A DNA stretch of 64,000 nucleotides from an uncultured virus (IMG/VR IMGVR_UViG_3300011830_000001) (Duplodnaviria > Heunggongvirae > Uroviricota > Caudoviricetes): the IMG/VR virus record IMGVR_UViG_3300011830_000001, positions 1-64,000 of that record; one strand, written 5' to 3'. A model generated the notes under the pieces. The model saw only the letters and a program-made list of their open reading frames with translations, searched no databases and had not been told where the DNA came from. Positions 4,699 through 39,200 of the stretch are shown one piece after another (position 1 is the stretch's first letter; each line of letters begins with the position of its first letter). A program made the translations under genes and the position numbers.

Positions 4699-5070
4699 GT
4701 GAAAACCATTAGTAACATTGAAATTGCTGATGTTTTATTGAGGGCTGGAAAGCCTGTTACATTCAAAGAAATCGTTGTGCTGATGAACGAGCACCACCCC
4801 AATTTTGATATCAACACCGGATACATTCGCCAGCGCCTGGTTCTATTCGCCCGCTCCCGCAACTGCGTTTGCGTCATCGATAAAGACGCCCGCCCCGTGA
4901 CCTATCACATGCAGTCCATCTTTCAGGAGTTTTTCCGTGGGAGCCGTGACGGACGCGTGCGCGACTTCTCGCATACGATCATCCGCAAGAAAGCGCAGGA
5001 GACCGAGGGGAGTACATCGATACTACGCCGCTTATGGCCCGCCCGCCCATACGTTACCGCCAGCGCCTGA
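4699..5070 (+). CDS. lpa: late promoter activator Lpa
   Basis: Resembles P1 Lpa (EIAD...HP..D...RL....S.....ID...RP....S...EFFR.SR); upstream of pacA as in P1. Confidence 0.8.
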   Translation: MKTISNIEIADVLLRAGKPVTFKEIVVLMNEHHPNFDINTGYIRQRLVLFARSRNCVCVIDKDARPVTYHMQSIFQEFFRGSRDGRVRDFSHTIIRKKAQETEGSTSILRRLWPARPYVTASA

Positions 5071-15263: not shown

Positions 15264-15515
15264 ATGCTGATCACCTCACCCACGCAGGAATTTATCTACC
15301 TGAACAACCACGCCGCCAACATCAAGCGGCTGCGCAAGAAGATAGGCCTCACGCAGAAGGCCTGCGCCGAGCGCTTTGGATATGCGCTGCGGACGTGGCA
15401 GGCCAAAGAGCAGGAGGCCAGCGCTGAAAACTCCCGCCCGCTCTCTGATGGCGAATTTGAATTGCTGTTATTATTGGCAGGTGAGCACCCATCGTTTACC
15501 CTAAAGGAAAAGTAA
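15264..15515 (+). CDS. small HTH regulator, Aca9-like
   Basis: NIKRLRKKIGLTQKACAERFG...TWQAKE...EFELLLLLAGEHP resembles Aca9 as recalled. Confidence 0.65.
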   Translation: MLITSPTQEFIYLNNHAANIKRLRKKIGLTQKACAERFGYALRTWQAKEQEASAENSRPLSDGEFELLLLLAGEHPSFTLKEK

Positions 15516-15535
15516 ATCTAAACCTGGGGACACCA

Positions 15536-15823
15536 ATGAACGATTCACGCGAAAGGTTCGAAAGCCACATAATCGAGACCAAACCGCACTTGCCGATTGT
15601 GCGCCGCTTTGACGGCGGCTATGAGAACGTTAAGACCAATACCCTCTGGCAGATATGGCAGGAAGCGCAGCGCGAGCCGGAAGCCCGCTGCGCTAACCTC
15701 ACCGCTATGGTTATGCGCCTGGCTAACCAGATACGCAAAAAGCAGCCTAAGAACGCGGTAGCCGAGAAGGCAATCCAGTACCTCACCGAGAACAAACTTA
15801 TTCAATTTCTACGAATCGAATAG
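15536..15823 (+). CDS. hypothetical phage protein
   Basis: GGGGA RBS; SRERFE...GGY...LWQIWQ type phage domain. Confidence 0.7.
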   Translation: MNDSRERFESHIIETKPHLPIVRRFDGGYENVKTNTLWQIWQEAQREPEARCANLTAMVMRLANQIRKKQPKNAVAEKAIQYLTENKLIQFLRIE

Positions 15824-15847
15824 AACTAAACAATTTTCTTGCGGTTT

Positions 15848-15868
15848 CCAGTAAACCTTTTTTACTCT
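15848..15868 (+). promoter_or_regulatory. putative Lpa-dependent late promoter
   Basis: CCAGTAAAC-6 nt-TACTCT, the same architecture as four other late-operon promoters. Confidence 0.6.
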
Positions 15869-15875
15869 CTCGCAC

Positions 15876-15981
15876 GTCGGGGATGGCGTTTGCGGGGGCC
15901 GTAAATTTCGACGTTTATCTAACCCGATTTTTCGCGCACCAATCCTCGACACTGGCCTCTTTATTGAGGCCTTATTTTTTT
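15876..15981 (+). ncRNA. candidate structured late small RNA or leader RNA
   Basis: Follows the late promoter; GTCGGGGAT (15876-15884) pairs with ATCCTCGAC (15942-15950); ends in a GGCCTC/GAGGCC hairpin plus TTATTTTTTT. Confidence 0.55.
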
Positions 15982-15998
15982 CCAGCGAGGGTTAACCT

Positions 15999-16655
15999 AT
16001 GTCCACCGTTAAGCGTATCGCCGTCCTCACTACCTCCACCAACCAGCCCATGATGATCCAGGCCGTCTACAAAGACGGAATGCTCACGTTTGGCAAGCTC
16101 AAGTCCCTCCCCGTCTCCCGTATGGCCTTGCACGCTACAGCAGTGCCGATTCTGGCGACGCTGGTGGCCCGTGGCTTTACGGTGCTGGTGGATGAGCGTG
16201 ACGGCTCCCTATCGCGCCTCTCCGGCGCTCAGCACATCACGTTTGGTACGAAGTTCGCCACTGGCGAGCCGATGATCGTCATGGCCTTCAACCTGGTGCG
16301 CGAAATGAAGCGCCAGCACGCCATTATCCCGCCGGAGGATAACCCGTCTGGTTTCGACGTGCCGGATACCGTGGTTAACGAGGTGTACAGCCAGTCGGGC
16401 GATATCAGCTACCGCGTGGATTGGGAGAACCTGCGCACCGAGCATTACCTGACCCTGCTGGCAGCTTACGCGACTGTGCATAACGCCGTGGGTACCGCCG
16501 CCTATATCAGGGCTGTCATGGGCGGTGCCGAGCCGGAGACGAAAATGCCTGATCCGCTGTCGGCAATCGTGGCCCATGAGCAGGCCAGAGCCGATGCGCA
16601 AATGCAGCCGAGCCTGACGGGTACCCGTCCGGACGAAAACACCTGGATCTTCTGA
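15999..16655 (+). CDS. mat: particle maturation protein Mat
   Basis: Resembles P1 Mat (KRIAVLTTST.QP.M, VLVDE, YRVDWENLRTEH, SLTG...DENT). Confidence 0.8.
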   Translation: MSTVKRIAVLTTSTNQPMMIQAVYKDGMLTFGKLKSLPVSRMALHATAVPILATLVARGFTVLVDERDGSLSRLSGAQHITFGTKFATGEPMIVMAFNLVREMKRQHAIIPPEDNPSGFDVPDTVVNEVYSQSGDISYRVDWENLRTEHYLTLLAAYATVHNAVGTAAYIRAVMGGAEPETKMPDPLSAIVAHEQARADAQMQPSLTGTRPDENTWIF

Positions 16656-16999
16656 TGGCACTCAAGTCCCCAAACCAATATAGCCGCCTCGATGACCGCA
16701 GCGTCGAAGACCTCATTCTCCGGGCCTACTTGCACCGGGAGATCATCCAACAGTCCGAGCGGTTCGATGATGAAAACAACTTCACCTACACCATCAAGCC
16801 AGATGAGAAGTACCGTCCGGATCTGGCCTCCTATCGCGCCTACGGGACGGTAGAGCTGCGCTGGGTGATAAACAGGATTGCAGGCCATGAAAGCGAGCTG
16901 GAGCCGTTGCAGGCAGGCCAGGATTTAAGCCTGCCGTCTACCGCGTTTATCCGTGACCGCGTGCGCCATTACGTTGAAAATCCCGAGATCGAAAGCTGA
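16655..16999 (+). CDS. baseplate protein gp26 (LysM-like)
   Basis: SRLDDR...PDEKYRPDLASYR...ELRWV as in P1 gp26. Confidence 0.85.
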   Translation: MALKSPNQYSRLDDRSVEDLILRAYLHREIIQQSERFDDENNFTYTIKPDEKYRPDLASYRAYGTVELRWVINRIAGHESELEPLQAGQDLSLPSTAFIRDRVRHYVENPEIES

Positions 17000-19046: not shown

Positions 19047-19815
19047 ACGGCACCGCCTGATCGACGTCCTGCGCACTAATGACCTGACAGATACGGGAAA
19101 GCGGGAGGTCTCCGGCTTCCATGAGGTCGATATTGCTTTTGGCAATTTCATCACTGACCTGATTGACGGCTTCTGCATTAACGAGCCGGATGCCATAAAT
19201 GCGGCCTTCCACGCCTACTGTGAGCGACCCAAAGCGGAAAAGGTGGTAATGGGTCGGTTCGATGACGTTAACGCCCTGCTGACGCACATACGCCGCGCCC
19301 GTGAGAAGGATAAAGACAACGGCAACCAGGTGCAGCTACCGCTGGTGAATATCAGCCGTAATTTTATGGTGACGTATGGCAACGGGGATCGGGCAATCGC
19401 CGATACCCATACAGGCGATTTCGTCTACAACGACAAGAAGGAGATCATCGGCGTGACCGCCAGCGTGCCTGCGACCCTCACCTATGACCTGTGGGTAGTC
19501 GGCGCGGATAAGGAATCCACCAGCCTGCTGATCAATGCGCTGGCGGCTGAATTCAGCCTCATGCTGAACACGGGCTTTAAAGCCCATACGCGTATCGCTA
19601 CCGGGCCTGCCGTACTGGATTGCGGCATCGATGGCGTGCGTAACTTCATGATGAACGACACCAGCCCTGACAGCGAATCTGAGCGCCTCTATGTGGGCGC
19701 TACCCAACTGAACGTCATCACCTCTGTCCTGATCGTCTACAACGTGACGCACGTTCGATCACGTGTACGGGTCATGACCCCTGAAACCATGCCGGAAAGT
19801 TCCACCCATGAATAA
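19033..19815 (+). CDS. P1 gp24-like tail terminator/completion protein
   Basis: Follows gp7 as in P1; LPLVNISR motif. Confidence 0.75.
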   Translation: MHSTKRHRLIDVLRTNDLTDTGKREVSGFHEVDIAFGNFITDLIDGFCINEPDAINAAFHAYCERPKAEKVVMGRFDDVNALLTHIRRAREKDKDNGNQVQLPLVNISRNFMVTYGNGDRAIADTHTGDFVYNDKKEIIGVTASVPATLTYDLWVVGADKESTSLLINALAAEFSLMLNTGFKAHTRIATGPAVLDCGIDGVRNFMMNDTSPDSESERLYVGATQLNVITSVLIVYNVTHVRSRVRVMTPETMPESSTHE

Positions 19816-22795
19816 GATCCCTTTCGCATTAGGCCGCGCCTCGGGCGTGGCGGCATCCGAGCCGGAGTATAACCAGGAGGTTAAATACATCCGGGGCCAG
19901 GCTGTCTTTGCCGGGCTGGTGGTGGCCCGCCGTGGCAAGCCGTTCTCCGTGATTACCGTGGATGCCGATAACTGGCAGCGTAAATTAGGCACGCCTGCAC
20001 ACCCGCGTGAAGGCAGGCAGTTTGAATCCCTGCGCCACGTCGCGCAGGCCGTCAACGGCGGATCCGGCAAAGTGGTGCGCGTGGTCGGGCGTGATATGCG
20101 CGTGCCGCTGCTGCGCCTGACCGTAAACGACACTCCGGCACCAGTTACAACAGGTAAGGTCAACCTCGCCGTATCCACCTTCTCTGTCAGCAAAAAGGTT
20201 TTGCTGGCGGACGGTAAAGACGAAATCACCGTGCAGCTGGTTGCCAAAGACAAAAACAACAATCTGTTGCTGAACCAGAGCACTATCGTATTCAAGTCGC
20301 TGGGCCGCACGCAGCCGACTATCAGCCAGACCTATGAGATTAACGGTACCTACTACGCCACCCTCACTGCCAACAAATCGGATCGCCTTCTGCTGATCGT
20401 GCTGGAGGGTAATGAGCGCATAGGCACTTTTGAGGAATATGTTGATGTGCGCCCGGCAATCATCGACCCGGACAAGAGCATATTCACCGCGACGCCGGAT
20501 ATCCTTGATGGCGATGGAAGCCAACAGGCCACGCTCCTGCTTAAGGCGATAGATCCGGATGGACTGGAGATCAGCGGCCTGAACAATATTGAGTTCGTGG
20601 TAACGGGTAACGCCAACCCACTGATGACCAATATTCTGGAGGTTATGCCGGGCGTTTATCAGGCCAAAGTATCCGCCAGCAACCAGGGCACAATGGTTGT
20701 CACTGTGCGTCAGAACGGCGTGCTGATGGCCCCGCTACAGCTCTCTATCCGCCTGGTGAAGGTTGTGCATGGCGGTATGACATTTGAGAATGCCAGCACA
20801 TTTGACGTCATCCCGCGTGAAATCTATGCCGATGGAAACGACACCTCTAATCTCATCTTCACCGTTGCGGATAAAAACGGGGCGCGGATTAAGGGGATCG
20901 CAAACCAGCTGAGCTTTAAGGTGGAGGGCATTACCCAATTCACGCTGAGCGCTATCACAGAACAGCGCAGCGGCCTCTACGAGGCAACCCTGCAATCAAC
21001 CGATAAGGGCCAGGCCACTATTACCCCCGTGCAGTATTACAACGGTCGGGATGTTGAGCTAAAAAAGCTTGCAGTAGACATTGAGGCCATTGAGACACCT
21101 CGCGTTGATGCAGCCCTTACTACGCTGACTAAAGACAAATCGCGCATTATCAACAACGGGACGGACTGCGTTGCTTATACGCTCAGGCTGAATGACGCGC
21201 AAAATAAGCCGATCTCCCATCTGCACGGGCTGTCTGTGGTGGTCACATCCGGGGCGGGCACGATCTCCCAGCTGAACGAATCCAAACCGGGCGTTATCAC
21301 GTTTACTGTCACCAGCACCTACTATGGCGACGTTGAAGTAAGCCTGATGCAATACGGCGCACCGCTCGGCACCATCACAGATCGCTTTGTCTCCGCCCCT
21401 GTTTCCGCCCTGACGCCGACGAACAGCACGCTGGTGGTTAAGGCTATGCAGACCGATGGCGTGGCGCAGGTGATGATTGAGCAGCCGGAGGTCAGCGCAT
21501 TAGCTGTCATTCCACCAGCTGCCCCAGCCGTTAAAACGTGGGTGCATGTCAACTTTGCTGCCGTAGAGCCATTCAGTGAAGTGACTGACGAGGGCAACCC
21601 AATCACCCTGGCCGATGATGACCTGATGGTCATTTATCCGGATGACGGCGAAGCCAGCACAAACCGCAGCGTGGAGATCATGCCGGACGTTGAGCCAGGT
21701 AAATGGCTGCTGGTACTGAACGAGACCGACAACATGGGTATTGATACCATGCTGGAGCGCTGGTCATTCAGCCTCGATCCGCAGGGCCGGGACGCGTATG
21801 GCCTGCCGGACTGGCTCCCTCTCAAGCTGGAGGCAAAAAATTCCCGCCTCCGGGCTATTGTGCAGCCGGGCGTGCCCTTCCCGGATACGTTTACGGGGAT
21901 TGAAAGTACGCGCTTTGTAGGCGGCACTGACGGCGACAATAACGCGCTAACAGTAGCTGACTACCGCCGCGCCCTGAACGCGCTCAGTGCCTCGATGGAC
22001 ACCTACAACGTTATGCTGTCGCTCGGCTGCTATGAAGGCGCGGTGATCGAAGACCTGGCCCAACATGCATGGGATCGGCGGATCGATATGTTTGCCGACG
22101 TGCCGTGTGAATACAGCCCCCAGCAGGCGTTTAACTTCATGCGTTCGCTGAGCCTGGGCAACTTCCCGAACGTGGCAATGTATCACTTCCCGTACAGCTC
22201 CCGTGACCCGTTCACCCGAATCCCTGTTGTCTATGGCCTGTCCGGAGACGTCTTCTACGCGAAAGCACGCGGCGTGCTACAGGTGCGCGGCTGCGGTGGC
22301 TGGCACTTCGCTCCGGCTGGCATGGCCCGCGCCACTATCCGCCGCTTGTCCATTGTTCCACTGCATGAGAACGCGGACGAGATCGACCGTGAAGCGTACG
22401 TGACGGCCCGCCTTAATCCGGTAGCCTCCGGTGTAACCGGGGCGCTCCAGATTGATGACTCACTGACGACGTGGAGCCAGAACAACGATCTGCAATATCA
22501 GAACATCACCAGCGTGATGAACAGCATTACCCGTGATCTGTATGAGATCTGTAGGGTGATCAAACACGACCCAAGCAATGTGCCCGGCGTGGCGCTGCGC
22601 CGGGAGATTCCGCTGCTGCTTGATGAGTATGTGAATGCGGGTGCGCTGGTGGCACCGATAGATCCAACCAGCACACCGCTGCCGTACCTGTATGAGGTGG
22701 CGGAAGACGGCTTTGACGCGTGGAAGATATCGGTAGCCGTGTGCATTGTCGGCACGGCACGCCGGATCCAGTGCGAACCAATTATTTACCGTTAA
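19808..22795 (+). CDS. second tail-sheath paralog with about 4 inserted invasin-type Ig domains
   Basis: N- and C-termini align with the 36203 sheath (MNKIPFA, RGKP, IDREAYVTAR.NPVA, TTWS.NN, ARR...EPI..R); four ~100-aa ADG..T...D..G repeats in between. Confidence 0.88.
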   Translation: MNKIPFALGRASGVAASEPEYNQEVKYIRGQAVFAGLVVARRGKPFSVITVDADNWQRKLGTPAHPREGRQFESLRHVAQAVNGGSGKVVRVVGRDMRVPLLRLTVNDTPAPVTTGKVNLAVSTFSVSKKVLLADGKDEITVQLVAKDKNNNLLLNQSTIVFKSLGRTQPTISQTYEINGTYYATLTANKSDRLLLIVLEGNERIGTFEEYVDVRPAIIDPDKSIFTATPDILDGDGSQQATLLLKAIDPDGLEISGLNNIEFVVTGNANPLMTNILEVMPGVYQAKVSASNQGTMVVTVRQNGVLMAPLQLSIRLVKVVHGGMTFENASTFDVIPREIYADGNDTSNLIFTVADKNGARIKGIANQLSFKVEGITQFTLSAITEQRSGLYEATLQSTDKGQATITPVQYYNGRDVELKKLAVDIEAIETPRVDAALTTLTKDKSRIINNGTDCVAYTLRLNDAQNKPISHLHGLSVVVTSGAGTISQLNESKPGVITFTVTSTYYGDVEVSLMQYGAPLGTITDRFVSAPVSALTPTNSTLVVKAMQTDGVAQVMIEQPEVSALAVIPPAAPAVKTWVHVNFAAVEPFSEVTDEGNPITLADDDLMVIYPDDGEASTNRSVEIMPDVEPGKWLLVLNETDNMGIDTMLERWSFSLDPQGRDAYGLPDWLPLKLEAKNSRLRAIVQPGVPFPDTFTGIESTRFVGGTDGDNNALTVADYRRALNALSASMDTYNVMLSLGCYEGAVIEDLAQHAWDRRIDMFADVPCEYSPQQAFNFMRSLSLGNFPNVAMYHFPYSSRDPFTRIPVVYGLSGDVFYAKARGVLQVRGCGGWHFAPAGMARATIRRLSIVPLHENADEIDREAYVTARLNPVASGVTGALQIDDSLTTWSQNNDLQYQNITSVMNSITRDLYEICRVIKHDPSNVPGVALRREIPLLLDEYVNAGALVAPIDPTSTPLPYLYEVAEDGFDAWKISVAVCIVGTARRIQCEPIIYR

Positions 22796-24904: not shown

Positions 24905-25122
24905 AATCCTCATTCCCCCCGTTGAGTAACTGCCTCTGCAAGTAAGTACATGCGGCATAAGCCTTAACTAATTCCTACCCATTCTACAGTGAAATAAATT
25001 AAATCTAAACGTAAGTGGTAAACCTTTTCGCGTATAGGTTTACTTTGATGAGCCTGCATTTTTTCGCGGTCTAACAAGACCAATAAGCCGACCCGGTTAG
25101 AGGGGATTTTTTCGCCCCGGCA

Positions 25123-25143
25123 CTAATAAACTCCCGTTATCCT
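25123..25143 (+). promoter_or_regulatory. putative late promoter
   Basis: CTAATAAAC-6 nt-TATCCT. Confidence 0.7.
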
Positions 25144-25174
25144 CCTGGCGTAAATCAACCCATGAGGAAAAATC

Positions 25175-26773
25175 ATGTCTACACAACTGGCCCAACTCGA
25201 CAACCGGGCTAATGCCGTGCTGTCTCTGCTGTCGTCCAAAGGGTGTGATGGTCTGATGTGTGAAGGCGTCTCCGACGTCGCCCGCCATCGCGTAAACGCC
25301 ATCGCTAAGACCTGGCGCGAGGCGCTGGAGAACTATCAGGCTAAATTCAGTAAACTGCCGCCGCGTGACCTGCTGGCAAGCGCACACGGCGCACTGGAGC
25401 GCCTTCTCGGCAAAGATGCACTCGACCGCATCCCGCAGGAGCATCGCCCTTTGATGGAAGCCGCAGCGGGCGATATGAGCACCTCCGGCAAAGGCGTTGA
25501 CCGTCTGGCCCACTATGCGGCGATCTACCTGCCTGCCCTGCTGGCGCAGGAAACAATTAACCTCGCTTCCTGGGTAGACTGCTCACGTGGTCAACGGCTG
25601 GTGGAGGTGGTGCAGCTGGTTCCCGTCACGACCACTGCATTTGGTGGCGTGGACGCTGGCAAAGAGCTGCCACTGGCAGCGCCGGATATGTTCTATACCG
25701 ACTTTACTAGAACTGGCCCGTTTGACGGCACGCCGGATGGCAATCAGGCGCTTTTCTACCATACCCAGCCGGACAAGATGGCGATCAAGCCTGGTACTCT
25801 GCGCGTGCGTATCGATAACAAAGTTGTCTCCGGCTATGACGATCCGGCGAATGGCTTTGTTGATGTGACCGGGCACCCGGATTACAACGGCGCACGCCTG
25901 TCAGTAGACAACTCCACCAGCCCTGCCCCGATCCTGACGCTGGACTTCACCAACGCCAAACAAAAACCTGCGGCGGGTACCGTGCTGGCCTATGAATACT
26001 GTATCGATGACGAATGGCTCGCCAACTACCACCCGGAATTAATGCCGGGCATCAATTTCAGGATGAGGAAGATCCAGCACGCGCTCAAAAACGCGCTGCT
26101 GCGCTTTGATACCACCGTCATGGCAGCATTTGATGCGCAGCGCGAGATGGGCGTTGACCTGGGAAGCCTGGCGACGCAGGTGATGATCGGCATCATGTCA
26201 GGGGATTACGACCTGGGCCGCGTCATGCGCCTGGCGCAGACCTGTACCGACCATAGCGATATCGCGCTAGACCTGAGCCAGGATGACGGCGTTAAGGCCA
26301 ACCGGAAGATTTACCGTACCATTCTCGGCCTCAATAGCGATCTCGGAAAAAAAGCCAATTTCCTCGGCGCGTCGTCCATCGTCGCGGGTGAAGAGATCGG
26401 GAGCTGGCTGATGACTCACCCGACCTTTATCCCGGCGGTGCAGTCGCCGTCTAACCTGATGCCAGGGCGTGTCACGCGTGTAGGCTATGTGTTTGGCATG
26501 GAATTGTTCGTTGTGCCTAAGACGCTCACCGATGCAGTGAAAAATCTGCCGACCCTGAAACTTACCGAGAAGACCGTGATCCTGGTGGCGAATGACGGCA
26601 ACGGTCGCGCCCCGCTGGTGGCAGGCGACGCTATCCCGCCTGTGCCTCTGGTGGAGCGCCAGGCATCGCCGAACCTGAAAAGCACCTCTGTACTCATCAC
26701 CCAAACGCTGGGGGGTGAGAACATCGACGGGTCTAATTACTGCATTAGTGCAGATATTACTATCACCGAGTAA
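25175..26773 (+). CDS. major-capsid-protein paralog (532 aa)
   Basis: Aligns with the 34392 protein (LMEAAAGDM vs MFEAASGDM, IKPG vs IRPG, DAQREMGVDL vs DAQREFGLDL, LVAGDA shared); own late promoter and a hairpin near 26779-26802. Confidence 0.85.
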   Translation: MSTQLAQLDNRANAVLSLLSSKGCDGLMCEGVSDVARHRVNAIAKTWREALENYQAKFSKLPPRDLLASAHGALERLLGKDALDRIPQEHRPLMEAAAGDMSTSGKGVDRLAHYAAIYLPALLAQETINLASWVDCSRGQRLVEVVQLVPVTTTAFGGVDAGKELPLAAPDMFYTDFTRTGPFDGTPDGNQALFYHTQPDKMAIKPGTLRVRIDNKVVSGYDDPANGFVDVTGHPDYNGARLSVDNSTSPAPILTLDFTNAKQKPAAGTVLAYEYCIDDEWLANYHPELMPGINFRMRKIQHALKNALLRFDTTVMAAFDAQREMGVDLGSLATQVMIGIMSGDYDLGRVMRLAQTCTDHSDIALDLSQDDGVKANRKIYRTILGLNSDLGKKANFLGASSIVAGEEIGSWLMTHPTFIPAVQSPSNLMPGRVTRVGYVFGMELFVVPKTLTDAVKNLPTLKLTEKTVILVANDGNGRAPLVAGDAIPPVPLVERQASPNLKSTSVLITQTLGGENIDGSNYCISADITITE

Positions 26774-30619: not shown

Positions 30620-31351
30620 TCATTCTGTTTCGGGTTTACTGTCTTTCAGCGTATCGATGATCGTGAATTTAAAGCTGGAGCCTTCAATGGTGACTGCTAC
30701 GCGTAGCGGGGTGTGCTTGTTGATCTGCTTTAACGCGCTGTCTAAAAATCCTCGCTTCACCCATGACGGCCTGCCTATAACCGAATCAGTGAAATCATAC
30801 CGCGCCGCGAAATCATCCAGTGTGGTATTCCACCAGCCACTATCGCGCCTTAAGCACAGATCCTCGTAAAGCCTAATCTGGTTCGTGCTGGTTAACTTGC
30901 CGCATTCTTTCATGTTGAACCGGGCAAAGCCGCGCTCCAGCTCTTTCAGGTAAGGCATGACGCTGGCGGTAAAAATCACCTCATGCTCAGCAGTTGGCTT
31001 GCCTTTGCCGTTACTTTTCACCATTTCCAGCCAGCGCATTTCGATCTCTTCCCACTCTGAATCATCAGAGGGTGAAAATCTCACGGTGCCTTCATACAGA
31101 GCCGCCAGCCCGGCCCGCACATCACGGGAAGCCTTAGCCGCGTCACAGCCAAAGTAGGTGCGGTAGCGTGCTGCGCTTATCTTAAATACCCCATCATGCG
31201 CATCACGCGAATCTGCCATATTCAGATCAGAGAGGCACATCAACAGGATGCGTTTTGCAGACAGCGGCATGACATACACTGAATTCATCAAAGCCCTGCC
31301 CTGGGCGATGCGAGGGTTGTCTTTCGTCGTTAAGAGTTTGCTGCTCATCAC
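30620..31351 (-). CDS. Rep_3 family (RepB/RepE-like) plasmid replication initiator
   Basis: KRILL, F...VMPYL.EL..GF, IRLYE, FL..ALKQINKHT; adjacent to an iteron origin. Confidence 0.9.
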   Translation of the reverse strand: MMSSKLLTTKDNPRIAQGRALMNSVYVMPLSAKRILLMCLSDLNMADSRDAHDGVFKISAARYRTYFGCDAAKASRDVRAGLAALYEGTVRFSPSDDSEWEEIEMRWLEMVKSNGKGKPTAEHEVIFTASVMPYLKELERGFARFNMKECGKLTSTNQIRLYEDLCLRRDSGWWNTTLDDFAARYDFTDSVIGRPSWVKRGFLDSALKQINKHTPLRVAVTIEGSSFKFTIIDTLKDSKPETE

Positions 31352-31418: not shown

Positions 31419-31924
31419 GCGTGTAGTAAACTACAATCACCTTACCGAAATGTGAGGAATCCAGTGACCACCCGGCTGTTTTTAATGCTAAAAACTGGTG
31501 TGGATAAGGTTTTATTAACATCTGCAAAACCTCTCAGTATAAAAAACAATCAAAAACGGCTGAAAGTCGCGCTATATAAGGGTTTGAAGGGATTGGGATT
31601 GTAGTTTACCGCACGCTGGGGATATCGCTTTTGAGGTATGTAGTTTTCTACACGGGTAGCTTGTAGGTTTTTACACGCAGCCGCTTTTTAGGATGTAGTT
31701 TTTTACACGCGGGTATGTAGATTTCTACACGCGAGTATGTAGGTTTCTACACGCAATCGCTCTGAGAGCCGCGCCAGCTCTGGCCTGCCAATCCCTATTA
31801 CTTGTTATTACTGTTTATTACTTTAAAACCATTACTGGTTTTTATTACTAGGCTGTGGATAAAAGCGAAACAGCAGAGGTGAGCGATCCGTCTACCTTAC
31901 CTGGGTATGTAGTTTTCACCACGC
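31419..31924. repeat. plasmid origin: iterons, AT-rich repeats and DnaA boxes
   Basis: Iterons of type TGTAGwTTTyTACACG near 31597, 31635, 31659, 31691, 31711, 31733 and 31903, inverted copy at 31419; (T)ATTACT five times at about 31796-31849; TGTGGATAA at 31499 and 31854. Confidence 0.9.
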
Positions 31925-33587: not shown

Positions 33588-33932
33588 ATGGACATTGATA
33601 CAAAACTTTTAGGCATCAGCTTGTTGCCTTCACAACCGATCATGATGCTGTCGCCAGCGCTCATTAGCGCAGTTGCCGACAAACTACGGGTACCGTTCCG
33701 CGCAGCTAACATGATTTTTGAAGTGGCCCGCTATCTTTGGGAGTGTGGGGCCGCACTGAAAGTAAATAAAACGATTGAAGGCTACAGGGCGATCCTTGCC
33801 GCTGTAGAAGCCGAAAAGGCTAAGGTAGATAAATATCTTTTTCAGTCAACTCCGGCTTCGCCTTTAGAAACAGAGTTTGAAGCCCCCGACTCAGATTACC
33901 CTTCCCCAGCTTCTCCAGTTCTAATGCAATAA
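33588..33932 (+). CDS. hypothetical protein
   Basis: 114 aa in an AT-rich insert; 3' end overlaps the convergent ORF by 113 nt. Confidence 0.4.
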   Translation: MDIDTKLLGISLLPSQPIMMLSPALISAVADKLRVPFRAANMIFEVARYLWECGAALKVNKTIEGYRAILAAVEAEKAKVDKYLFQSTPASPLETEFEAPDSDYPSPASPVLMQ

Positions 33933-34215
33933 CCTCCGGGATAACCACACTTAACTTTCGGGGATTAATAAGCCGGTGCTTATTTCCCCGATGAGGCCAC
34001 GAAATTAACTTCAAGGCATCCATATTAAACAGCTCTACCGGAATTACTGCCAATTCACGCAAGTTATGATGCAGGTGAATGGTCTTCGCCGTCAGTTTCA
34101 AATCCTTGTCATTCGCCATTTCCGTCAGCTGGGCCACGGCCTCACTTTTGAAGCGGTGAGAGGTCTCAGCGCTGGTACGCCCGTTTGGATAGGTTGCGTA
34201 AATTTTGTAGGTCAT
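33820..34215 (-). CDS. hypothetical protein with C-terminal ribbon-helix-helix-like motif
   Basis: TAAGAAG upstream of ATG; RKLSVVIPE.....LEKLGKGNLSRGL. Confidence 0.6.
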   Translation of the reverse strand: MTYKIYATYPNGRTSAETSHRFKSEAVAQLTEMANDKDLKLTAKTIHLHHNLRELAVIPVELFNMDALKLISWPHRGNKHRLINPRKLSVVIPEVIALELEKLGKGNLSRGLQTLFLKAKPELTEKDIYLP

Positions 34216-34317
34216 ATCTTCTTACTCAGAATGTCGTCATTTTTTCGAGCATACCGGGAGTTTATTAGAGGCCGGGAACCTTTTTTCGTGCTGATCCAAA
34301 AATTTCCTTCACATTCG

Positions 34318-34338
34318 TTAATAACCTTTTTTTACCCT
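34318..34338 (+). promoter_or_regulatory. putative late promoter of the capsid operon
   Basis: TTAATAACC-6 nt-TACCCT. Confidence 0.65.
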
Positions 34339-34391
34339 TAGTCCGTCGAAATTTACACCCCGTGATAGCGCAATAATTATGGGCCTATCCC

Positions 34392-36137
34392 GTGAAGAAC
34401 CTAATTCAAGAGCGTCAGATCGATACTGCGACCCGCGCTAAAGAAGTGATGGCGTTTGCCGTCGAGCCGCAGTTTAACGATGGCAAATATATCGAAGATG
34501 ACGAAGCTCGCCGTACTGCGATCTTCGAAGCAGCAGTTAAATCACCTCTGTTCGAAGGTGCGCCGGAGCCGTTCGTGCGTATGGTTTCTAACGCATGGGC
34601 CACCTCTATCGGTGAGTACGCGACTAAGTACGACGTGTACCCGAACGCCGAAGAGTTGGCGAACTCCCACCGTGCAGCTCAGCGCTTCATGATGGAGTCC
34701 GCTAAAACCCAGCACAGCGGCTTTGCTGGCCCGATGTTCGAAGCGGCTTCCGGCGATATGCAGAAATCTGACGGCATTATGCGCCAGGCGCTGTTCGTTG
34801 CGATGATGCTGCCTGTGGCGCTGGGCGCTGCAACTGGCGACGCCTGTACTTTCGTACCGTGCGAACGTGACGAATCTGATATCTACAGAATCACCCAGGT
34901 AGCTGCGTCTACTTTTGGTAGCTACAAGCCAGGTGATGAGCTGGATATGCAGTCTGCTGGTGTCTATAGCCAGTTCCAGCGTACAGGCCTGTTCCCGGCT
35001 ACCTACGCCGACGTTAAAACGCCAGGCGTCACTGCGAACGCGGGCGATAAAAACGTCCCTGATGGCTCCCTGACCTTCTTTGGTATCAAGGTATCTGGTC
35101 TTGAGTCTGCGTTTGGTCTTAGCAAAGATCTGCCTATTCGTCCGGGCCGCACCATGCTGCTTATCAACCGTATGCCTGCCCGTAGCTATGATGATGGCTT
35201 AGGTAATATTTACTGGAACGGTAAGGATGCTAAAGGCAACGCGTTCAAAGTTGCAGGTACCATCTGGCCTACCGAGGGTGTGGTTGAAGTTAAGTTTGAT
35301 ACCGCGCCTCCTGCTGGTACCGAGCTGGCTCTGACCTTCGAGCTGGACGTTGAAAACAAGCCAGAAATCATCCCGCTGATCAACCAAAAAATGGTGAAAT
35401 TCACCGTTAAGCCGTCTCAGTATGCTCTGGCTACTGAATACAGCGTGCAGGCGCTGATGGACGCGCAGCGTGAATTTGGTCTGGATCTGTCTTCCCAGCT
35501 GTTCAACGGTGCACGTAACTGGCTGTCTCACGAAACCGATATGAAGCGCCTGCGTGAAATGCTGTGGCGTGCCGTATACACCGCAAATATCAAAACTGGC
35601 TGGAAGTCTGGCGATCAGGTTGATGCTTTCGCATCTCGCCTGCGCGTGCAGTTTAACAAGCTCAGCAACGACATGGTGCAGCGCACCAAAACTACGGGCG
35701 TCCGTGGCGGCTTCGCTGGTGCTACCGTGGTCAACATGCTGCGCTCCCTGCCGTCCTCCATGTGGACACCAGCGCCGGGCTATGCCGAATCGCCGTACGT
35801 GCAGTTTGCAGGCACCCTGTTTGGCTCGATCCGCATCTATGAAGTGCCTAATAAGGTCTGTGCTCAATTCGTGAATGAAGGCCTGCCGCTGGATGATTCC
35901 TCCTGCCTGTTCTACGGTCGCGGCGAAAACATTGGCGATGCTGGCCTTGTTGCTGGCGACGCTGTAGCAGCCATTCCATTCGTTCACCCAACCACTCCGC
36001 AACTCGTTAACCGCGTCACCCTGTGGGGCAGCGCTGTGAACGTTGTCCACCCGGATCACGGCGAAGACTACTTCACCCTGGCGAAATTCTCCGAAACCGA
36101 TCTGGATGGCGTGATCACCGTTCACTCCAACCCGTAA
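34392..36137 (+). CDS. major capsid protein gp23
   Basis: 581 aa P1 gp23-like; codon usage typical of high expression; first gene of the 23-22-21 block; hairpin at 36153-36173. Confidence 0.93.
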   Translation: MKNLIQERQIDTATRAKEVMAFAVEPQFNDGKYIEDDEARRTAIFEAAVKSPLFEGAPEPFVRMVSNAWATSIGEYATKYDVYPNAEELANSHRAAQRFMMESAKTQHSGFAGPMFEAASGDMQKSDGIMRQALFVAMMLPVALGAATGDACTFVPCERDESDIYRITQVAASTFGSYKPGDELDMQSAGVYSQFQRTGLFPATYADVKTPGVTANAGDKNVPDGSLTFFGIKVSGLESAFGLSKDLPIRPGRTMLLINRMPARSYDDGLGNIYWNGKDAKGNAFKVAGTIWPTEGVVEVKFDTAPPAGTELALTFELDVENKPEIIPLINQKMVKFTVKPSQYALATEYSVQALMDAQREFGLDLSSQLFNGARNWLSHETDMKRLREMLWRAVYTANIKTGWKSGDQVDAFASRLRVQFNKLSNDMVQRTKTTGVRGGFAGATVVNMLRSLPSSMWTPAPGYAESPYVQFAGTLFGSIRIYEVPNKVCAQFVNEGLPLDDSSCLFYGRGENIGDAGLVAGDAVAAIPFVHPTTPQLVNRVTLWGSAVNVVHPDHGEDYFTLAKFSETDLDGVITVHSNP

Positions 36138-36202: not shown

Positions 36203-39200
36203 ATGAACAAGATTCCTTTTGCCGTCGGGCAGGCAGCAGCGATTGCTGTCATGCAGCCGAACGCCGATGCCACCTACAGCAATGCTGCGGGTGGGTTAAG
36301 CGTTTTTGCGGGCATTCTGCCAGCTAAACGCGGCAAACCGCTCTCAGTGCTCCAACTGACTAAAGATAACTTCCTGAGCGTGCTGGGCGATGCGATTGCA
36401 CCGCATGACGGCATCGCCTTCGAGCCGATTCGCCACGTGCGCCAGGCGCTGAACGGCGGTAACGGCTATGTAGTCCGTGTGTGTCCTAAATCCATGCGTA
36501 TCCCGGTGCTGAAACTGCAACAGCCAGCCAGCAGCGCAAGCCAGGTGATCGACTTTAACCGCTCCGTCTTCAATACCGATCTGGACGCGCAGGCTGCCGA
36601 CGGCTACAGCCGCATTGTGCTGCAATTCACGCCGAAGGACTCAAAAGGCAACGTTATTACGGGCCTGGGTAAATCGGTTATCGGGTTTGCCGTATCTCCT
36701 GCTGCTGATGCGCAGATCTCCGCTGTGACCGAGAGTAACGGCGTTTACACTGCCTACCTGACGTCTACCGTGTCTGGTACGCTTAGCATTAGCGTTACGC
36801 AATCCGGCATCCCTATGCCGACCTTCTCGCGCTCTGTCGTGATGAAGCCTGCACACGTTGATACTGTGCGCTCCACGATTAGCGTAAGCCCTGGTGCTAT
36901 CACCGCGAACAACAGCGAAACTGCTATCGTCACCCTGATGGCCCGTGATGCGAGCAACGCGGCAATCACTGACGTTGATAACATCGATTTCGTTGTCACT
37001 GGCAACCAGGCTGTGAGCATCATTACCAAAAAGCCTTCTACCGACGGCAAAGGTAACTACTCCATCCAGGTGAAAGCGTCCGCGCCGGGCGATGCCACTA
37101 TCCAGGCACGCCAGGACGGTTCTAACATCGCTGGCATGGCTGCGGCATTGCAGGTTAAAGCGGTCAGCTCAAGCGTCACTCCAGTCATCGATCCGGCTAA
37201 CTCAAACATCCTGGTTTCTCCGGGTCAGATTGAAGCGAACAACAACGATCAGGCGACGATCACCTTCACGGCAGTAGATAATGCAGGCGCACCGCTGGCG
37301 GGCCTCACTGGCCTCTCATTCGTGGTATCCGGCGTTGCTGGTTATAACGTGAGTGCTATCACTGACAAGGGTGACGGTTCCTACACTGCCTCGATCTACT
37401 CTTCTGGTGATGGTGCGGCAATCATCAAGGCGCAGCTGGACGGAAAAGATATCGGCAGCAAAACCGCTTCCCTGTCCATCGTCAAAACTGCTGCTCCGGT
37501 CATCAACGCCAATCAGTCCTCCCTGACCCGCAGCCCTGCTACCATTGCGGCAGACGGCAAGGCAGCAAGCGTCATTACCTTCCTGGCGGTTGACACCACG
37601 GGCGCGAAAATGACCGGGCTGGCCTCTCGCCTGGCATTCAACGTGAACGCCAGCGGGGCCACCATTGACCAGATCGTCGAAAACGCGGGTTCCCCAGGCT
37701 CCTACTCTGCCAACCTGACCGCTACCAAAACGGGATCTTTTGCGGTATCCGTATCACTGGATAACGTGCTGGTGGGCGTGCAGAGCGTGTCTGTCACCGT
37801 TGCCCCGGTTAACATCAATGGCGTGGATGCAGCTAAATCCGTGCTGAATGCCAGCATCAGTGCCGGGATCGCAGGGGATGACACTGCTACGCTGACCTTT
37901 GAAGCCAAAACTGCTTCGGGCAACGCGGTAACGGGCCTGACTGATGTGACATTCCATCTGTCCAACTATCCGGGCGAGCAGGCTCTCAGAGCGACGGAAT
38001 ATACCCCTGGCACCTATACAGCAGATCTGCCACTGGCAGGCGTGGGTGATATTGCCGTAACTGTGTCCGCTAACGGTGCACTGGTGCAGGGTAAAGCCCT
38101 GAACATTACCGTTAAGCCGGGTGCAGACGAAGGCAGTTCTGATTTCACCCTGTCCAAAGCCGCAGGCACGGCGGGGAGTGACACCACCGATCTGGCGTTT
38201 ACGGCGAGAGATACGAATGGCGACGCGGTGACTGGCCTGAGCGTTACCGTGGACATTACAACTGCCAGCGGTAAGGCAACCATCAAAATGCCGGAAGACG
38301 GCATTACGGGCGTGTATAAGCTCCATTATGTGATGGTTGAAGCGGGTAGCGTGGCCTTTGCAATTAACGTCGGCGGTAAAGCGCTGGCGGCGGCGAAATA
38401 CAGTAAAACGATTACTGTTGCCAACCCTGTGCAGCTCATCGACCCGGCTAAATACAAGGTTAGCGTCTCCCCTGCTTCCGCTGTTGCTGATGGCACTGCT
38501 GTTGTTACCGTGACTCTGGAGCCTATCGCTGCGGCGGACAAAGTGGAAGGTCTCACTAACCTGACCCTGGGCCACACTGAATCTACAGTGATGACGCAGT
38601 ATGTCACCGCCAACAAATTTGTCGAAGACGCCGCCACCAAAGGGACGTATACGGCAACTGTTACCTCGACTCTGCAAGGTGCCGTACAGCTCGTTGCACA
38701 GGAAGCAGGTGCGAACCTCACTGGCCTGAAAACGTCGGCAACGTTTACCGCGAATGCCGATAACGTAGACAAATCCAAGTCCAGCCTGGTGCTGTCTAAA
38801 AAGTCCATCATCGCTGATGGCAACGATACCACCAACGTCAACTACACGGCGAACGACAAAGAAGGCCAGCCGATTATCGGGCTGACCAACGTAACCGCAG
38901 TTGTTTCCGGCGTGACAGGTATCACCATCAACCCGACTACCCTGTCTAACGGCGGCAATGGCGTTTACACCACCACCATCAAAGGCAACAAAGATGGCTC
39001 TGCGACCGTAGACATCAAAGTTGGCACCCAGGACGGGATCGCTACGCCGCAGACGCTGACGCTTGCCGTGGTGGCACCAGTTGCGGATGTGAGTGGCGCG
39101 GGCGGTTCGTTCTCTGTTTCGTCCAATACAGCTGTAGCTGATGGATCCACGTCTGTCGTGGCTACCCTGGTGCTGGTGGATACCAAAGGCCAACCGTTTA

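What the first reader, a model, noticed from the sequence alone, without database searches (positions are those of the whole stretch)
15876..15981. Late structured RNA with exact 13-nt complementarity to the major-capsid mRNA leader 18 kb away
Seen: a ~105-nt non-coding unit lies between a late-type promoter (15848-15868) and a terminator (15954-15981) and folds into a long imperfect hairpin. Its apical segment GTAAATTTCGACG (15901-15913) is the exact reverse complement of CGTCGAAATTTAC (34344-34356), located at the 5' end of the capsid transcript just after that gene's late promoter. Pairing extends through GCGGGG (15892-15897) with CCCCGT (34358-34363). The capsid gene starts with GTG, has no recognisable Shine-Dalgarno sequence, and has a GATAG/CTATC hairpin just before the start. 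Inference: a trans-acting phage RNA controls capsid translation, or the capsid leader controls read-through of this terminator into the mat-26-25-7-24-sheath-6-5 operon, coupling head and tail expression. I know of no such pair in P1.
Basis: partly seen in the sequence, partly recalled or inferred. Interest (0 to 1): 0.85.

Follow-up and report, generated by a model that had tools for sequence, protein, structure and literature searches.

The report
Phage RNA mirrors capsid mRNA start
A small structured RNA made just upstream of the phage's mat gene carries a stretch that base-pairs with the first letters of the major-capsid messenger, and this pairing is kept by matching changes in every P1-like and D6-like phage examined, P1 itself included, so it is probably an unrecognised RNA control of capsid production.

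Summary
GTAAATTTCGACG (15901-15913) is the exact reverse complement of CGTCGAAATTTAC (34344-34356). It lies in a promoter-to-terminator unit that folds well (z -3.07).

In this genome alone the match is not beyond chance. There are 273 exact inverted 13-mer pairs, and shuffled seeds score as well.

The case rests on relatives. I examined 10 P1/D6-like phages and phage-plasmids, falling into 7 distinct seed classes. In all 10, a homologous ~110-nt unit sits between a lineage-specific late promoter and a terminator, directly upstream of mat. Its apical hairpin pairs (9-18 contiguous bp) with the first nucleotides of that lineage's capsid late transcript.

The paired sequences differ between lineages but change together:
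- D6: 17 bp exact.
- P1: 13 bp with 1 G.U.
- Salmonella Newport plasmid: 14 bp.

Each unit's longest helix is with a leader of its own class. In P1 the unit lies inside the annotated 5' end of the mat CDS.

I found no Rfam family and no paper describing it. The most likely reading is a leader-derived small RNA that pairs in trans with the 5' end of capsid mRNA. Whether it raises or lowers capsid output is unknown. No RNA data could be obtained.

The parts
15853..15869 (+). Late-type promoter of the unit: AAACCTTTTTTAC motif, with a predicted -10 TACTCT at 15864-15869
   Evidence: AACCTTTT occurs only 4 times on the + strand, all intergenic (15854, 25021, 34277, 34323). In relatives, mat and capsid also share a lineage-specific motif at this place. 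The -10 and the start site are inferred.
15876..15981 (+). Structured non-coding RNA unit (mat-leader RNA). Outer stem 15876-15889 with 15934-15950; inner stem 15893-15896 with 15923-15926; apical hairpin 15901-15906 with 15913-15918.
   Evidence: fold (z -3.07); a covariance model built only from D6-clade units finds 15873-15979 as its best hit in the window (17.5 bits, E about 0.0055).
15892..15913 (+). Seed: GCGGGG (15892-15897) and GTAAATTTCGACG (15901-15913), complementary to the capsid leader
15954..15981 (+). Intrinsic terminator: GGCCTC-loop-GAGGCC, then TTATTTTTTT
   Evidence: The same element is present in all 10 lineages.
15999..16655 (+). mat homologue (218 aa), first gene of the baseplate/tail operon
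   Evidence: 34% identical to D6 'maturation control protein'.
34322..34338 (+). Late-type promoter of the capsid gene: TAACCTTTTTTTAC motif, with a predicted -10 TACCCT at 34333-34338
34344..34363 (+). Target: CGTCGAAATTTAC (34344-34356) and CCCCGT (34358-34363), at about +1 to +20 of the predicted capsid late transcript
   Evidence: The position relative to the -10 is inferred.
34365..34389 (+). GATAG/CTATC hairpin, with a weak GGG Shine-Dalgarno-like element in its loop
34392..36137 (+). Major capsid gene (581 aa, GTG start)
   Evidence: phrog_1014, E 2.7e-139. (45.5% identical to the D6 major capsid protein, 41% to P1 gp23).
4699..5070 (+). Lpa-like late promoter activator, the presumed driver of both promoters
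   Evidence: phrog_1704. (PF25716 BPP1_LPA, 80.9 bits against a cut-off of 35).

Best explanation
The ~105-nt unit is a conserved structured RNA. It is transcribed from the phage's late (Lpa-type) promoter and mostly ended by its own intrinsic terminator. Read-through transcripts carry it as the 5' leader of mat.

The 5' arm and loop of its apical hairpin base-pair in trans with the first 13-20 nucleotides of the major-capsid late mRNA, which is made from the same type of promoter 18 kb away. I infer that this duplex at the extreme 5' end sets how much capsid protein is made, by changing the stability or the translation initiation of an mRNA with a GTG/TTG start and a weak, partly structured ribosome-binding site.

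**Shown here:** the anatomy, the homology of the unit across the P1/D6 family, and the covarying complementarity.

**Inferred:** that a discrete RNA exists, that the two RNAs meet, and the direction and sign of the effect. I lean slightly towards activation or stabilisation.
For: 1. **Anatomy.** Promoter motif, well-folding stem-loops and terminator are all present.

2. **Homologous units upstream of mat in 10 of 10 lineages examined.** These are this phage, D6, E. coli pMUB-MIN14-1, Enterobacter pJBIWA008_2, Pantoea pPSP-26e, Citrobacter pNY2385-2, the Xenorhabdus megaplasmid, P1, Salmonella pCVMN1543 and Cronobacter phage JK004. A model built from five D6-clade units finds this window's unit as its top hit in the window.

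3. **The outer stem covaries.** In the P1 clade, 24 pairs are 95% paired against 30-41% when slid. Helix 1 is 100% paired, with 3 of its 9 pairs changed on both sides.

4. **The longest unit-leader helix always falls in the same two places.**
- Lengths in bp / G.U: this phage 13/0, D6 17/0, MIN14 18/1, JBIWA 17/3, PSNIH1 12/1, Cfre 10/0, Xbov 9/1, P1 13/1, Newport 14/1, JK004 14/1.
- The helix always lies in unit nt ~21-50 and at the leader's 5' end.
- The paired letters differ between lineages, for example GTAAATTTCGACG, TGAAGGTTCTTTTGACG, TGGATCCCTTTTC and TGGAACTCTTTTCA.

5. **Units match their own leaders.** In the 10x10 matrix every unit's best leader belongs to its own seed class. The diagonal sum is 132.5 against a permutation mean of 87.7, and 1 of 100,000 permutations reaches it.

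6. **Genome-wide rank.** The capsid leader is the best non-self hit in D6 and P1 and the second best here.

7. **Interruptions inside helices favour RNA.** They are 6 G.U, 1 A.C and 2 other.

8. **The target begins 6-8 nt after the predicted -10**, that is at about +1, in all 10 lineages.

9. **All 10 capsid genes start with GTG or TTG**.
Against: - **No RNA evidence.** No RNA run was available, so a discrete RNA, its ends and any pairing in the cell are unshown.
- **Not above chance in a single genome.** both show this.
- **Few independent lineages.** The 10 lineages are 7 independent classes at most, and I chose them from hit lists.
- **Energy-based scoring is weaker than contiguous helices.** The cognate leader is best for 7 of 10 units. 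JBIWA, Cfre and P1 are slightly beaten by a leader of another class.
- **No G.U excess in the flanks.** Over the 6-nt flanks there are 23 G.U against 20 A.C.
- **No predicted effect on the ribosome-binding site.** Blocking the target in silico does not change its predicted accessibility: 0.31-0.54 stays within 0.03 in 9 lineages, and P1 goes from 0.63 to 0.72. The sign of regulation has no computational support.
- **Terminator read-through is required.** mat and, in this phage, essential baseplate genes lie behind the terminator, so much read-through must occur.
- **Outgroups are unclear.** Two more distant relatives (a Vibrio plasmid and Pantoea CCBC3-3-1) show no clear unit and only 11-12-bp helices with 3 G.U each.
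Confidence: 0.6

Rival explanations
1. The regulation runs the other way. The abundant capsid leader pairs with the nascent mat leader and changes how often the terminator stops transcription, which tunes Mat (and, in this phage and D6, baseplate genes) to capsid mRNA output.
For: - A strong terminator stands between the only visible promoter and mat in all 10 lineages.
- The same complementarity supports either direction.
- A paper read in passages (PMC10695390) says no P1 antiterminator protein has direct experimental evidence, although the authors see strong indications that P1 encodes antiterminators.
Against: - The seed is 40-50 nt upstream of the terminator, inside a closed outer stem.
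- I saw no alternative antiterminator pairing in the folds.
- In P1 only mat lies behind the terminator, so head-tail coupling is not general.
Confidence: 0.17
2. The shared sequence is a DNA site for a lineage-specific protein, for example a late regulator. It is bound in either orientation at both promoter-proximal regions, and RNA pairing plays no part.
For: - Both sites lie within 50 bp of late promoters whose upstream motif also changes with lineage.
- Flank-wide counts show no G.U excess: 23 G.U against 20 A.C.
Against: - In all 10 lineages the two copies are inverted relative to transcription.
- Inside the helices the departures are G.U (6) rather than A.C (1).
- The site in the unit sits in the arm and loop of a hairpin enclosed by a covarying stem and followed by a terminator.
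- The sites have different distances from their promoters: about +1 for the capsid leader and about +21 for the unit.
Confidence: 0.08
3. The complementarity is a leftover of common descent or chance. The capsid leader resembles the 3' arm of the unit's own hairpin, so the 5' arm matches both without any trans function.
For: - In a single genome the match is not above chance.
- By eye, the D6 and P1 leaders resemble the 3' arm of the unit's hairpin in the sequences.
Against: - Trans helices (13-18 bp) are longer and cleaner than the cis hairpin stems (5-8 bp with G.U).
- Seven seed classes keep the match through different sequences. Neutral decay would have erased it at 28-36% Mat identity to this phage's Mat.
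Confidence: 0.05
4. The region codes for protein, either an N-terminal extension of Mat as annotated in P1 or a leader peptide whose translation through the terminator governs read-through.
For: - The P1 record annotates mat from 2716, inside the unit.
- ATG or TTG stands at the 5' edge of the seed in every lineage. In this window the ORF 15883-16053 crosses the terminator.
- By my reading of the sequences, the ORFs of P1, Newport and PSNIH1 cross it too.
Against: - By my reading of the same sequences, frame and length are not conserved. The ORF is in frame with mat in P1, out of frame here, and 17 codons ending before the terminator in D6 and JBIWA.
- No Shine-Dalgarno sequence precedes these codons.
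- Other annotated records start mat at the downstream ATG.
- Mat alignments begin at the downstream start.
Confidence: 0.04

Closest known systems
C4 antisense RNA of phages P1/P7 (immI) and the CI RNA of P4 (own knowledge, not from a call)
   Same: A phage-encoded, highly structured small RNA made from the 5' part of an operon. Short exposed stretches pair with a phage mRNA to control a key gene.
   Different: - C4 acts on the ant region of its own transcript and serves immunity. This RNA is late, and its target is another transcript 18 kb away (56 kb in P1).
- No Rfam family, C4 included, matches this unit or those of 6 relatives' loci.
Small RNAs that pair with the extreme 5' end of an mRNA and stabilise it: FasX-ska in Streptococcus pyogenes, RoxS-yflS in Bacillus subtilis (own knowledge)
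   Same: The target is the very first nucleotides of the mRNA, so the duplex would cap the 5' end.
   Different: - Those are host RNAs in Gram-positive bacteria.
- Here the effect is untested, the host is enterobacterial, and both partners are phage late transcripts.
Leader-derived small RNAs made by premature termination that act in trans: SreA/SreB of Listeria, rnTrpL of Sinorhizobium (own knowledge)
   Same: A terminated 5' leader of a gene doubles as a base-pairing RNA for a distant target.
   Different: - Those leaders sense a ligand or translation.
- No ligand-binding or attenuation switch is evident here.
Anti-antisense activators DsrA/RprA acting on the rpoS leader (own knowledge)
   Same: In the D6 clade the target abuts or overlaps a leader segment predicted to pair with the start codon. 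This is the layout such activators exploit.
   Different: - In silico masking of the target did not open the start region.
- The layout differs in the P1 clade.

Membership tests
Trans-acting base-pairing small RNA | Own promoter and intrinsic terminator bounding a short non-coding unit | tested here: met
   - Promoter motif.
- Terminator.
- Same layout in 10 of 10 lineages.
- The promoter is predicted, not mapped.
Trans-acting base-pairing small RNA | Seed complementarity to a target mRNA that is conserved or covaries in relatives | tested here: met
   - 9-18 bp in 10 of 10 lineages across 7 seed classes, and each unit's best leader is in its own class.
- by energy, the cognate leader is best for only 7 of 10 units.
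Trans-acting base-pairing small RNA | A discrete RNA species exists in infected or induced cells | not testable with these tools
   The one run search listed no RNA holder.
Trans-acting base-pairing small RNA | Changing the seed changes target expression, and a compensatory change restores it | not testable with these tools
   This needs an experiment.
C4 antisense RNA family (Rfam) | Match to the family's covariance model | tested here: not met
   - No family reached the gathering score in the window.
- Nothing relevant at E up to 10 around the unit.
- Nothing at E up to 0.1 in 11 relatives' loci.
P1-type Lpa-dependent late promoter | An Lpa homologue is encoded | tested here: met
   - phrog_1704.
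- PF25716, 80.9 bits against a cut-off of 35.
P1-type Lpa-dependent late promoter | P1's 9-bp element (AAGTGACTT at LPmat and LP23) about 4 bp upstream of a -10 | tested here: not met
   This phage has AACCTTTTTT instead. D6 and the other lineages each have their own motif, shared by mat and capsid. It works like a late promoter, but the sequence is lineage-specific.
P1-type Lpa-dependent late promoter | The motif precedes the late operons generally (11 in P1, from passages of PMC10695390) | tested here: inconclusive
   - Only 4 + strand copies, in 3 intergenic regions: before mat, a capsid paralogue and capsid.
- The regions upstream of the terminase, tail-fibre and lysis genes lack it.
Transcription attenuator (cis leader switch) | Terminator between promoter and gene | tested here: met
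   The terminator ends 17 nt before the mat ATG.
Transcription attenuator (cis leader switch) | Mutually exclusive antiterminator structure | tested here: inconclusive
   None is visible in the minimum-energy or centroid folds. I did not search for one exhaustively.

The most novel reading that the evidence does not exclude
The RNA and the protein encoded right behind it work as a pair. Mat's predicted fold resembles the RNase H-like nuclease domain of large terminases. In this reading Mat would use the mat-leader RNA as a guide or partner to process or protect the 5' end of capsid mRNA. That would explain two things: why the unit has stayed glued to mat in every lineage, even in P1 where mat moved away from the baseplate genes, and why mat mutants are described as 'maturation control' mutants.
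Probability: 0.06. Interest if true: 0.92.

Novelty: new variant of a known kind. Interest (0 to 1): 0.8.

Why it matters
P1 is one of the most studied phages, a standard laboratory tool, and the type of a large group of phage-plasmids. The P1-type unit is in 696 PLSDB plasmid records and the D6-type unit in 121.

If the pairing is functional, late capsid production in this whole family has a post-transcriptional layer that nobody has annotated. It would be an RNA made together with the poorly understood mat gene that addresses the first nucleotides of the capsid messenger.

It can be tested directly in P1 in laboratory E. coli with seed and compensatory mutations. It would also correct the P1 mat annotation, and it gives an explanation for the conserved GTG/TTG capsid start.

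Tried and rejected
**Close relatives not found**
- DNA searches with the unit region found nothing in phages (near and distant modes) or plasmids. The near search with the capsid region found nothing in phages. The capsid-region search in plasmids hit only inside the gene, at 68-73% identity.
- Protein-seeded locus searches found no relative. I tried Mat alone, a 4-sequence Mat alignment, and capsid, in viral, genome and metagenome contigs.
- The big protein collection holds only 3 Mat relatives (97, 50 and 48% identity). I could not fetch their DNA.
- Exact-pattern scans of viral contigs gave 26 and 34 loci. None of the 60 is related to this genome by blastn.

**Sequencing runs**
- No RNA holder was listed.
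- Laying 4 runs gave contigs over both sites: X5 covers 15500-16788 with 36 differences and 33644-34387 with 26 differences plus a 1-nt deletion at 34372. X7 covers 34263-34571 and is identical.
- The table of differences was cut to 40 rows with 658 more not shown, and none of the rows shown lies at either site. Covariation in near relatives therefore stays untested.

**RNA family and model searches**
- Rfam gave no family.
- The MAFFT alignment of six units gave a useless consensus fold.
- The D6-clade model does not detect P1-clade units. Its 19.7-bit hit in P1 at 84279-84369 lies in the pap-pmgT spacer, and I took it as chance.

**Pairing analyses that did not discriminate**
- Full-length duplex folding over-extends and does not separate cognate from non-cognate pairs.
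- Masking the target in silico does not change the accessibility of the ribosome-binding site.
- G.U and A.C counts over the flanks show no excess.
- Duplex folding of this phage's unit against the capsid-paralogue leader gives -30.9 kcal/mol over a longer stretch. I did not take that as a second target.

**Other**
- The Vibrio and Pantoea CCBC3-3-1 outgroups were inconclusive.
- Paper searches and passages of three papers mention no RNA upstream of mat. The P1 genome paper was not held, so I cannot say what it states about this region beyond the GenBank record.

Full report
**What the window is.**
The window is the first 64 kb of a 99,199-bp viral contig with terminal repeats. Its genes identify a distant relative of phages P1 and D6. 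Found:
- an Lpa-like late activator (4699-5070; PF25716, 80.9 bits);
- PacA/PacB-like terminase;
- a Cre-like integrase;
- mat followed by baseplate and tail genes (15999 onward);
- the major capsid gene (34392-36137), followed by sheath, tube and pmg genes.

Mat is only 34% identical to D6 Mat and 28% to P1 Mat. Capsid is 45.5% and 41% identical. No DNA-level relative of the unit exists in the phage or plasmid collections.

**The observation.**
The unit folds at -38.6 kcal/mol against -27.7 for shuffles (z -3.07). It has a long outer stem, an inner stem, and an apical hairpin whose 5' arm and loop are the 13-mer. A terminator-like hairpin and T-run follow at 15954-15981, 17 nt before the mat ATG.

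In this genome alone, the complementarity proves nothing:
- The genome holds 273 exact inverted 13-mer pairs.
- A scan of the seed region against both strands ranks the capsid leader second among non-self hits.
- Shuffled seeds do as well (best-anywhere 13.6 +/- 1.3 against 13.0).

The context is what is unusual. AACCTTTT occurs four times on the + strand, always intergenic, and all four lie in three intergenic regions: before the mat unit, before a capsid paralogue at 25175, and twice before the capsid gene. In both the unit and the capsid leader, CGTCG follows the motif at 8-9 nt.

**Relatives decide it.**
In D6 the region upstream of mat is also a promoter-to-terminator unit. It holds TGAAGGTTCTTTTGACG, the exact complement of 17 nt at the 5' end of the D6 capsid leader. 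So the two places match again, with other letters.

I then took capsid and mat loci from further lineages. Ten lineages could be compared. The longest contiguous unit-leader helix in each:

| Lineage | bp | G.U |
|---|---|---|
| this phage | 13 | 0 |
| D6 | 17 | 0 |
| E. coli pMUB-MIN14-1 | 18 | 1 |
| Enterobacter pJBIWA008_2 | 17 | 3 |
| Pantoea pPSP-26e | 12 | 1 |
| Citrobacter pNY2385-2 | 10 | 0 |
| Xenorhabdus megaplasmid | 9 | 1 |
| P1 | 13 | 1 |
| Salmonella pCVMN1543 | 14 | 1 |
| Cronobacter phage JK004 | 14 | 1 |

The helix always lies in unit nt ~21-50 and at the 5' end of the leader, ending 30-43 nt before the start codon. Reading the sequences of SJ46 and an E. albertii plasmid by eye, they carry the P1 version at these sites; they were not in the 10-lineage computation.

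Between classes the changes are compensatory. For example, the P1 unit has GGATCCC opposite leader GGGATTC, while Newport has GGAACTC opposite GAGTTCC. D6 has GGTTC opposite GAACC, while pPSP-26e has GGAAT opposite GTTCC.

In the 10x10 matrix each unit's longest helix is with a leader of its own seed class, and there are 7 classes. The diagonal sum is 132.5 against 87.7 for permutations, and 1 of 100,000 permutations reaches it. The lineages are kin and I chose them from hit lists, so this is not a clean probability.

Genome-wide, the capsid leader is the top non-self hit in D6 (17.0) and in P1 (12.5).

**Weaker results.**
- Energy scoring is less clean. The cognate leader is best for 7 of 10 units.
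- Within helices the interruptions are 6 G.U, 1 A.C and 2 other, which favours RNA over DNA. Over the 6-nt flanks G.U and A.C are equal, 23 against 20.
- Two outgroups, a Vibrio plasmid and Pantoea CCBC3-3-1, show no clear unit.
- A Klebsiella IncF plasmid keeps unit and mat but has no capsid gene.

**The unit is one RNA family.**
All ten units share the same order of parts:
1. a lineage-specific late-promoter motif, shared with that lineage's capsid gene (AAGTGACTT in P1, annotated as the -22 region of LPmat and LP23; AAATCACAAA in D6; AACCTTTTTT here);
2. an outer stem;
3. a seed hairpin;
4. a small second hairpin;
5. a spacer;
6. a terminator;
7. mat.

A covariance model built from five D6-clade units finds the Xenorhabdus unit (19.5 bits) and this window's unit (17.5 bits, the best hit in the window). 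In the P1 clade the named structure is 95% paired against 30-41% when slid, and 3 of the 9 outer-stem pairs changed on both sides. Rfam has no family for any of these.

**P1 itself.**
In P1 the elements are:
- LPmat -10: 2691-2696;
- outer stem: GCCCGGTAC 2705-2713 with GTACCGGGC 2757-2765;
- seed: TGGATCCCTTTTC 2717-2729;
- terminator: 2789-2814;
- an ATG at 2827 with a Shine-Dalgarno-like GGGGG before it.

The record starts mat at 2716, inside the unit. Mat alignments begin at the downstream ATG, and other records annotate that start. The seed's partner GAAAAGGGATTCA begins 8 nt after the annotated -10 of LP23, so at about +1 of the late transcript. The same holds, by predicted -10, in all ten lineages.

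**How it most likely works.**
Shown here are a conserved structured unit and a covarying complementarity to the extreme 5' end of the capsid late transcript. I infer that the unit is released as a small RNA by its terminator, and is also carried on read-through mat mRNA. I also infer that it pairs with capsid mRNA and affects its stability or translation.

All ten capsid genes start with GTG or TTG behind a weak AGGG-type element. In predicted folds the start codon is mostly paired (unpaired probability 0.01-0.41). In the D6 clade the segment paired with the start codon abuts or overlaps the target, a layout that suggests activation. Masking the target in silico did not open the site, however, so the sign stays open.

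The reverse direction, with the capsid leader acting on terminator read-through, remains possible. So does a DNA-site reading, less probably. Both are scored among the rival explanations.

**Known or new.**
Five paper searches and passages of three papers gave nothing on an RNA upstream of mat. The P1 genome paper was not held. The closest known things are the C4/CI antisense RNAs, 5'-end-pairing stabilisers such as FasX and RoxS, and leader-derived trans RNAs. These are named from my own knowledge. The scan's notes hold an analogous, unrelated case in a crAss-like phage, which I did not test.

The P1-type unit occurs in 696 PLSDB records, all at 95% identity or more, and the D6-type unit in 121.

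**Mat.**
Mat has no Pfam family. A model of medium confidence (pLDDT 71.9, pTM 0.66) resembles large-terminase nuclease domains (Foldseek E 2.7e-4, TM 0.39-0.47). This is a lead for the boldest reading, not evidence.

Noticed in passing
P1 record NC_005856, 2716-2826 (locus L077): The annotated mat CDS starts at 2716, inside the RNA unit, and runs through its terminator. The alignment with other Mat proteins and other records' annotation point to the ATG at 2827 as the real start.
   Followed up: partly
window 25021-26773: There is a second, diverged copy of the capsid-family gene (532 aa, phrog_1014, E 3.1e-39). It has its own AACCTTTT motif and a CTAATAAACTCCCG element, which recurs inverted at 34255 before the capsid region and resembles (from memory) a P1 C1 operator.
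   Followed up: no
window 19808-22795 and 36203-41788: Two very long proteins (995 and 1861 aa) carry a tail-sheath domain (phrog_1036) only at the C-terminal end, behind large N-terminal regions. One sits in the baseplate operon and the other follows the capsid gene.
   Followed up: no
window 15999-16655: The Mat model (pLDDT 71.9) resembles the RNase H-like nuclease domain of large terminases (Foldseek E 2.7e-4, TM about 0.4). No Pfam family matches.
   Followed up: partly
window 31650-31760: Four direct repeats of a ~16-nt unit of the form GTAG.TTT.TACACGC lie beside the replication-initiator gene (30620-31351, - strand). They are probably iterons of the plasmid origin.
   Followed up: no
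whole genome, e.g. 4660, 6930, 25000, 80570, 92250, 93800, 96500: A TTTAGAT / ATCTAAA motif recurs in many intergenic regions, often 6-8 nt before a -10-like hexamer. It occurs ahead of lpa, the terminase genes and presumed early genes. It is a second promoter class or a regulator site.
   Followed up: no
P1 locus L064 629-675: Transcripts from the two sigma-70 promoters annotated upstream of LP23 would include CTCTTCC, which is complementary to the GGAAGAG Shine-Dalgarno region of gene 23. The late transcript would lack it. This is a possible block on capsid translation outside the late phase.
   Followed up: no
locus L083 (Klebsiella pneumoniae plasmid NZ_AP021910): A conjugative IncF plasmid keeps the unit, mat and the next baseplate genes of a P1-like element, but has no capsid gene.
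   Followed up: no
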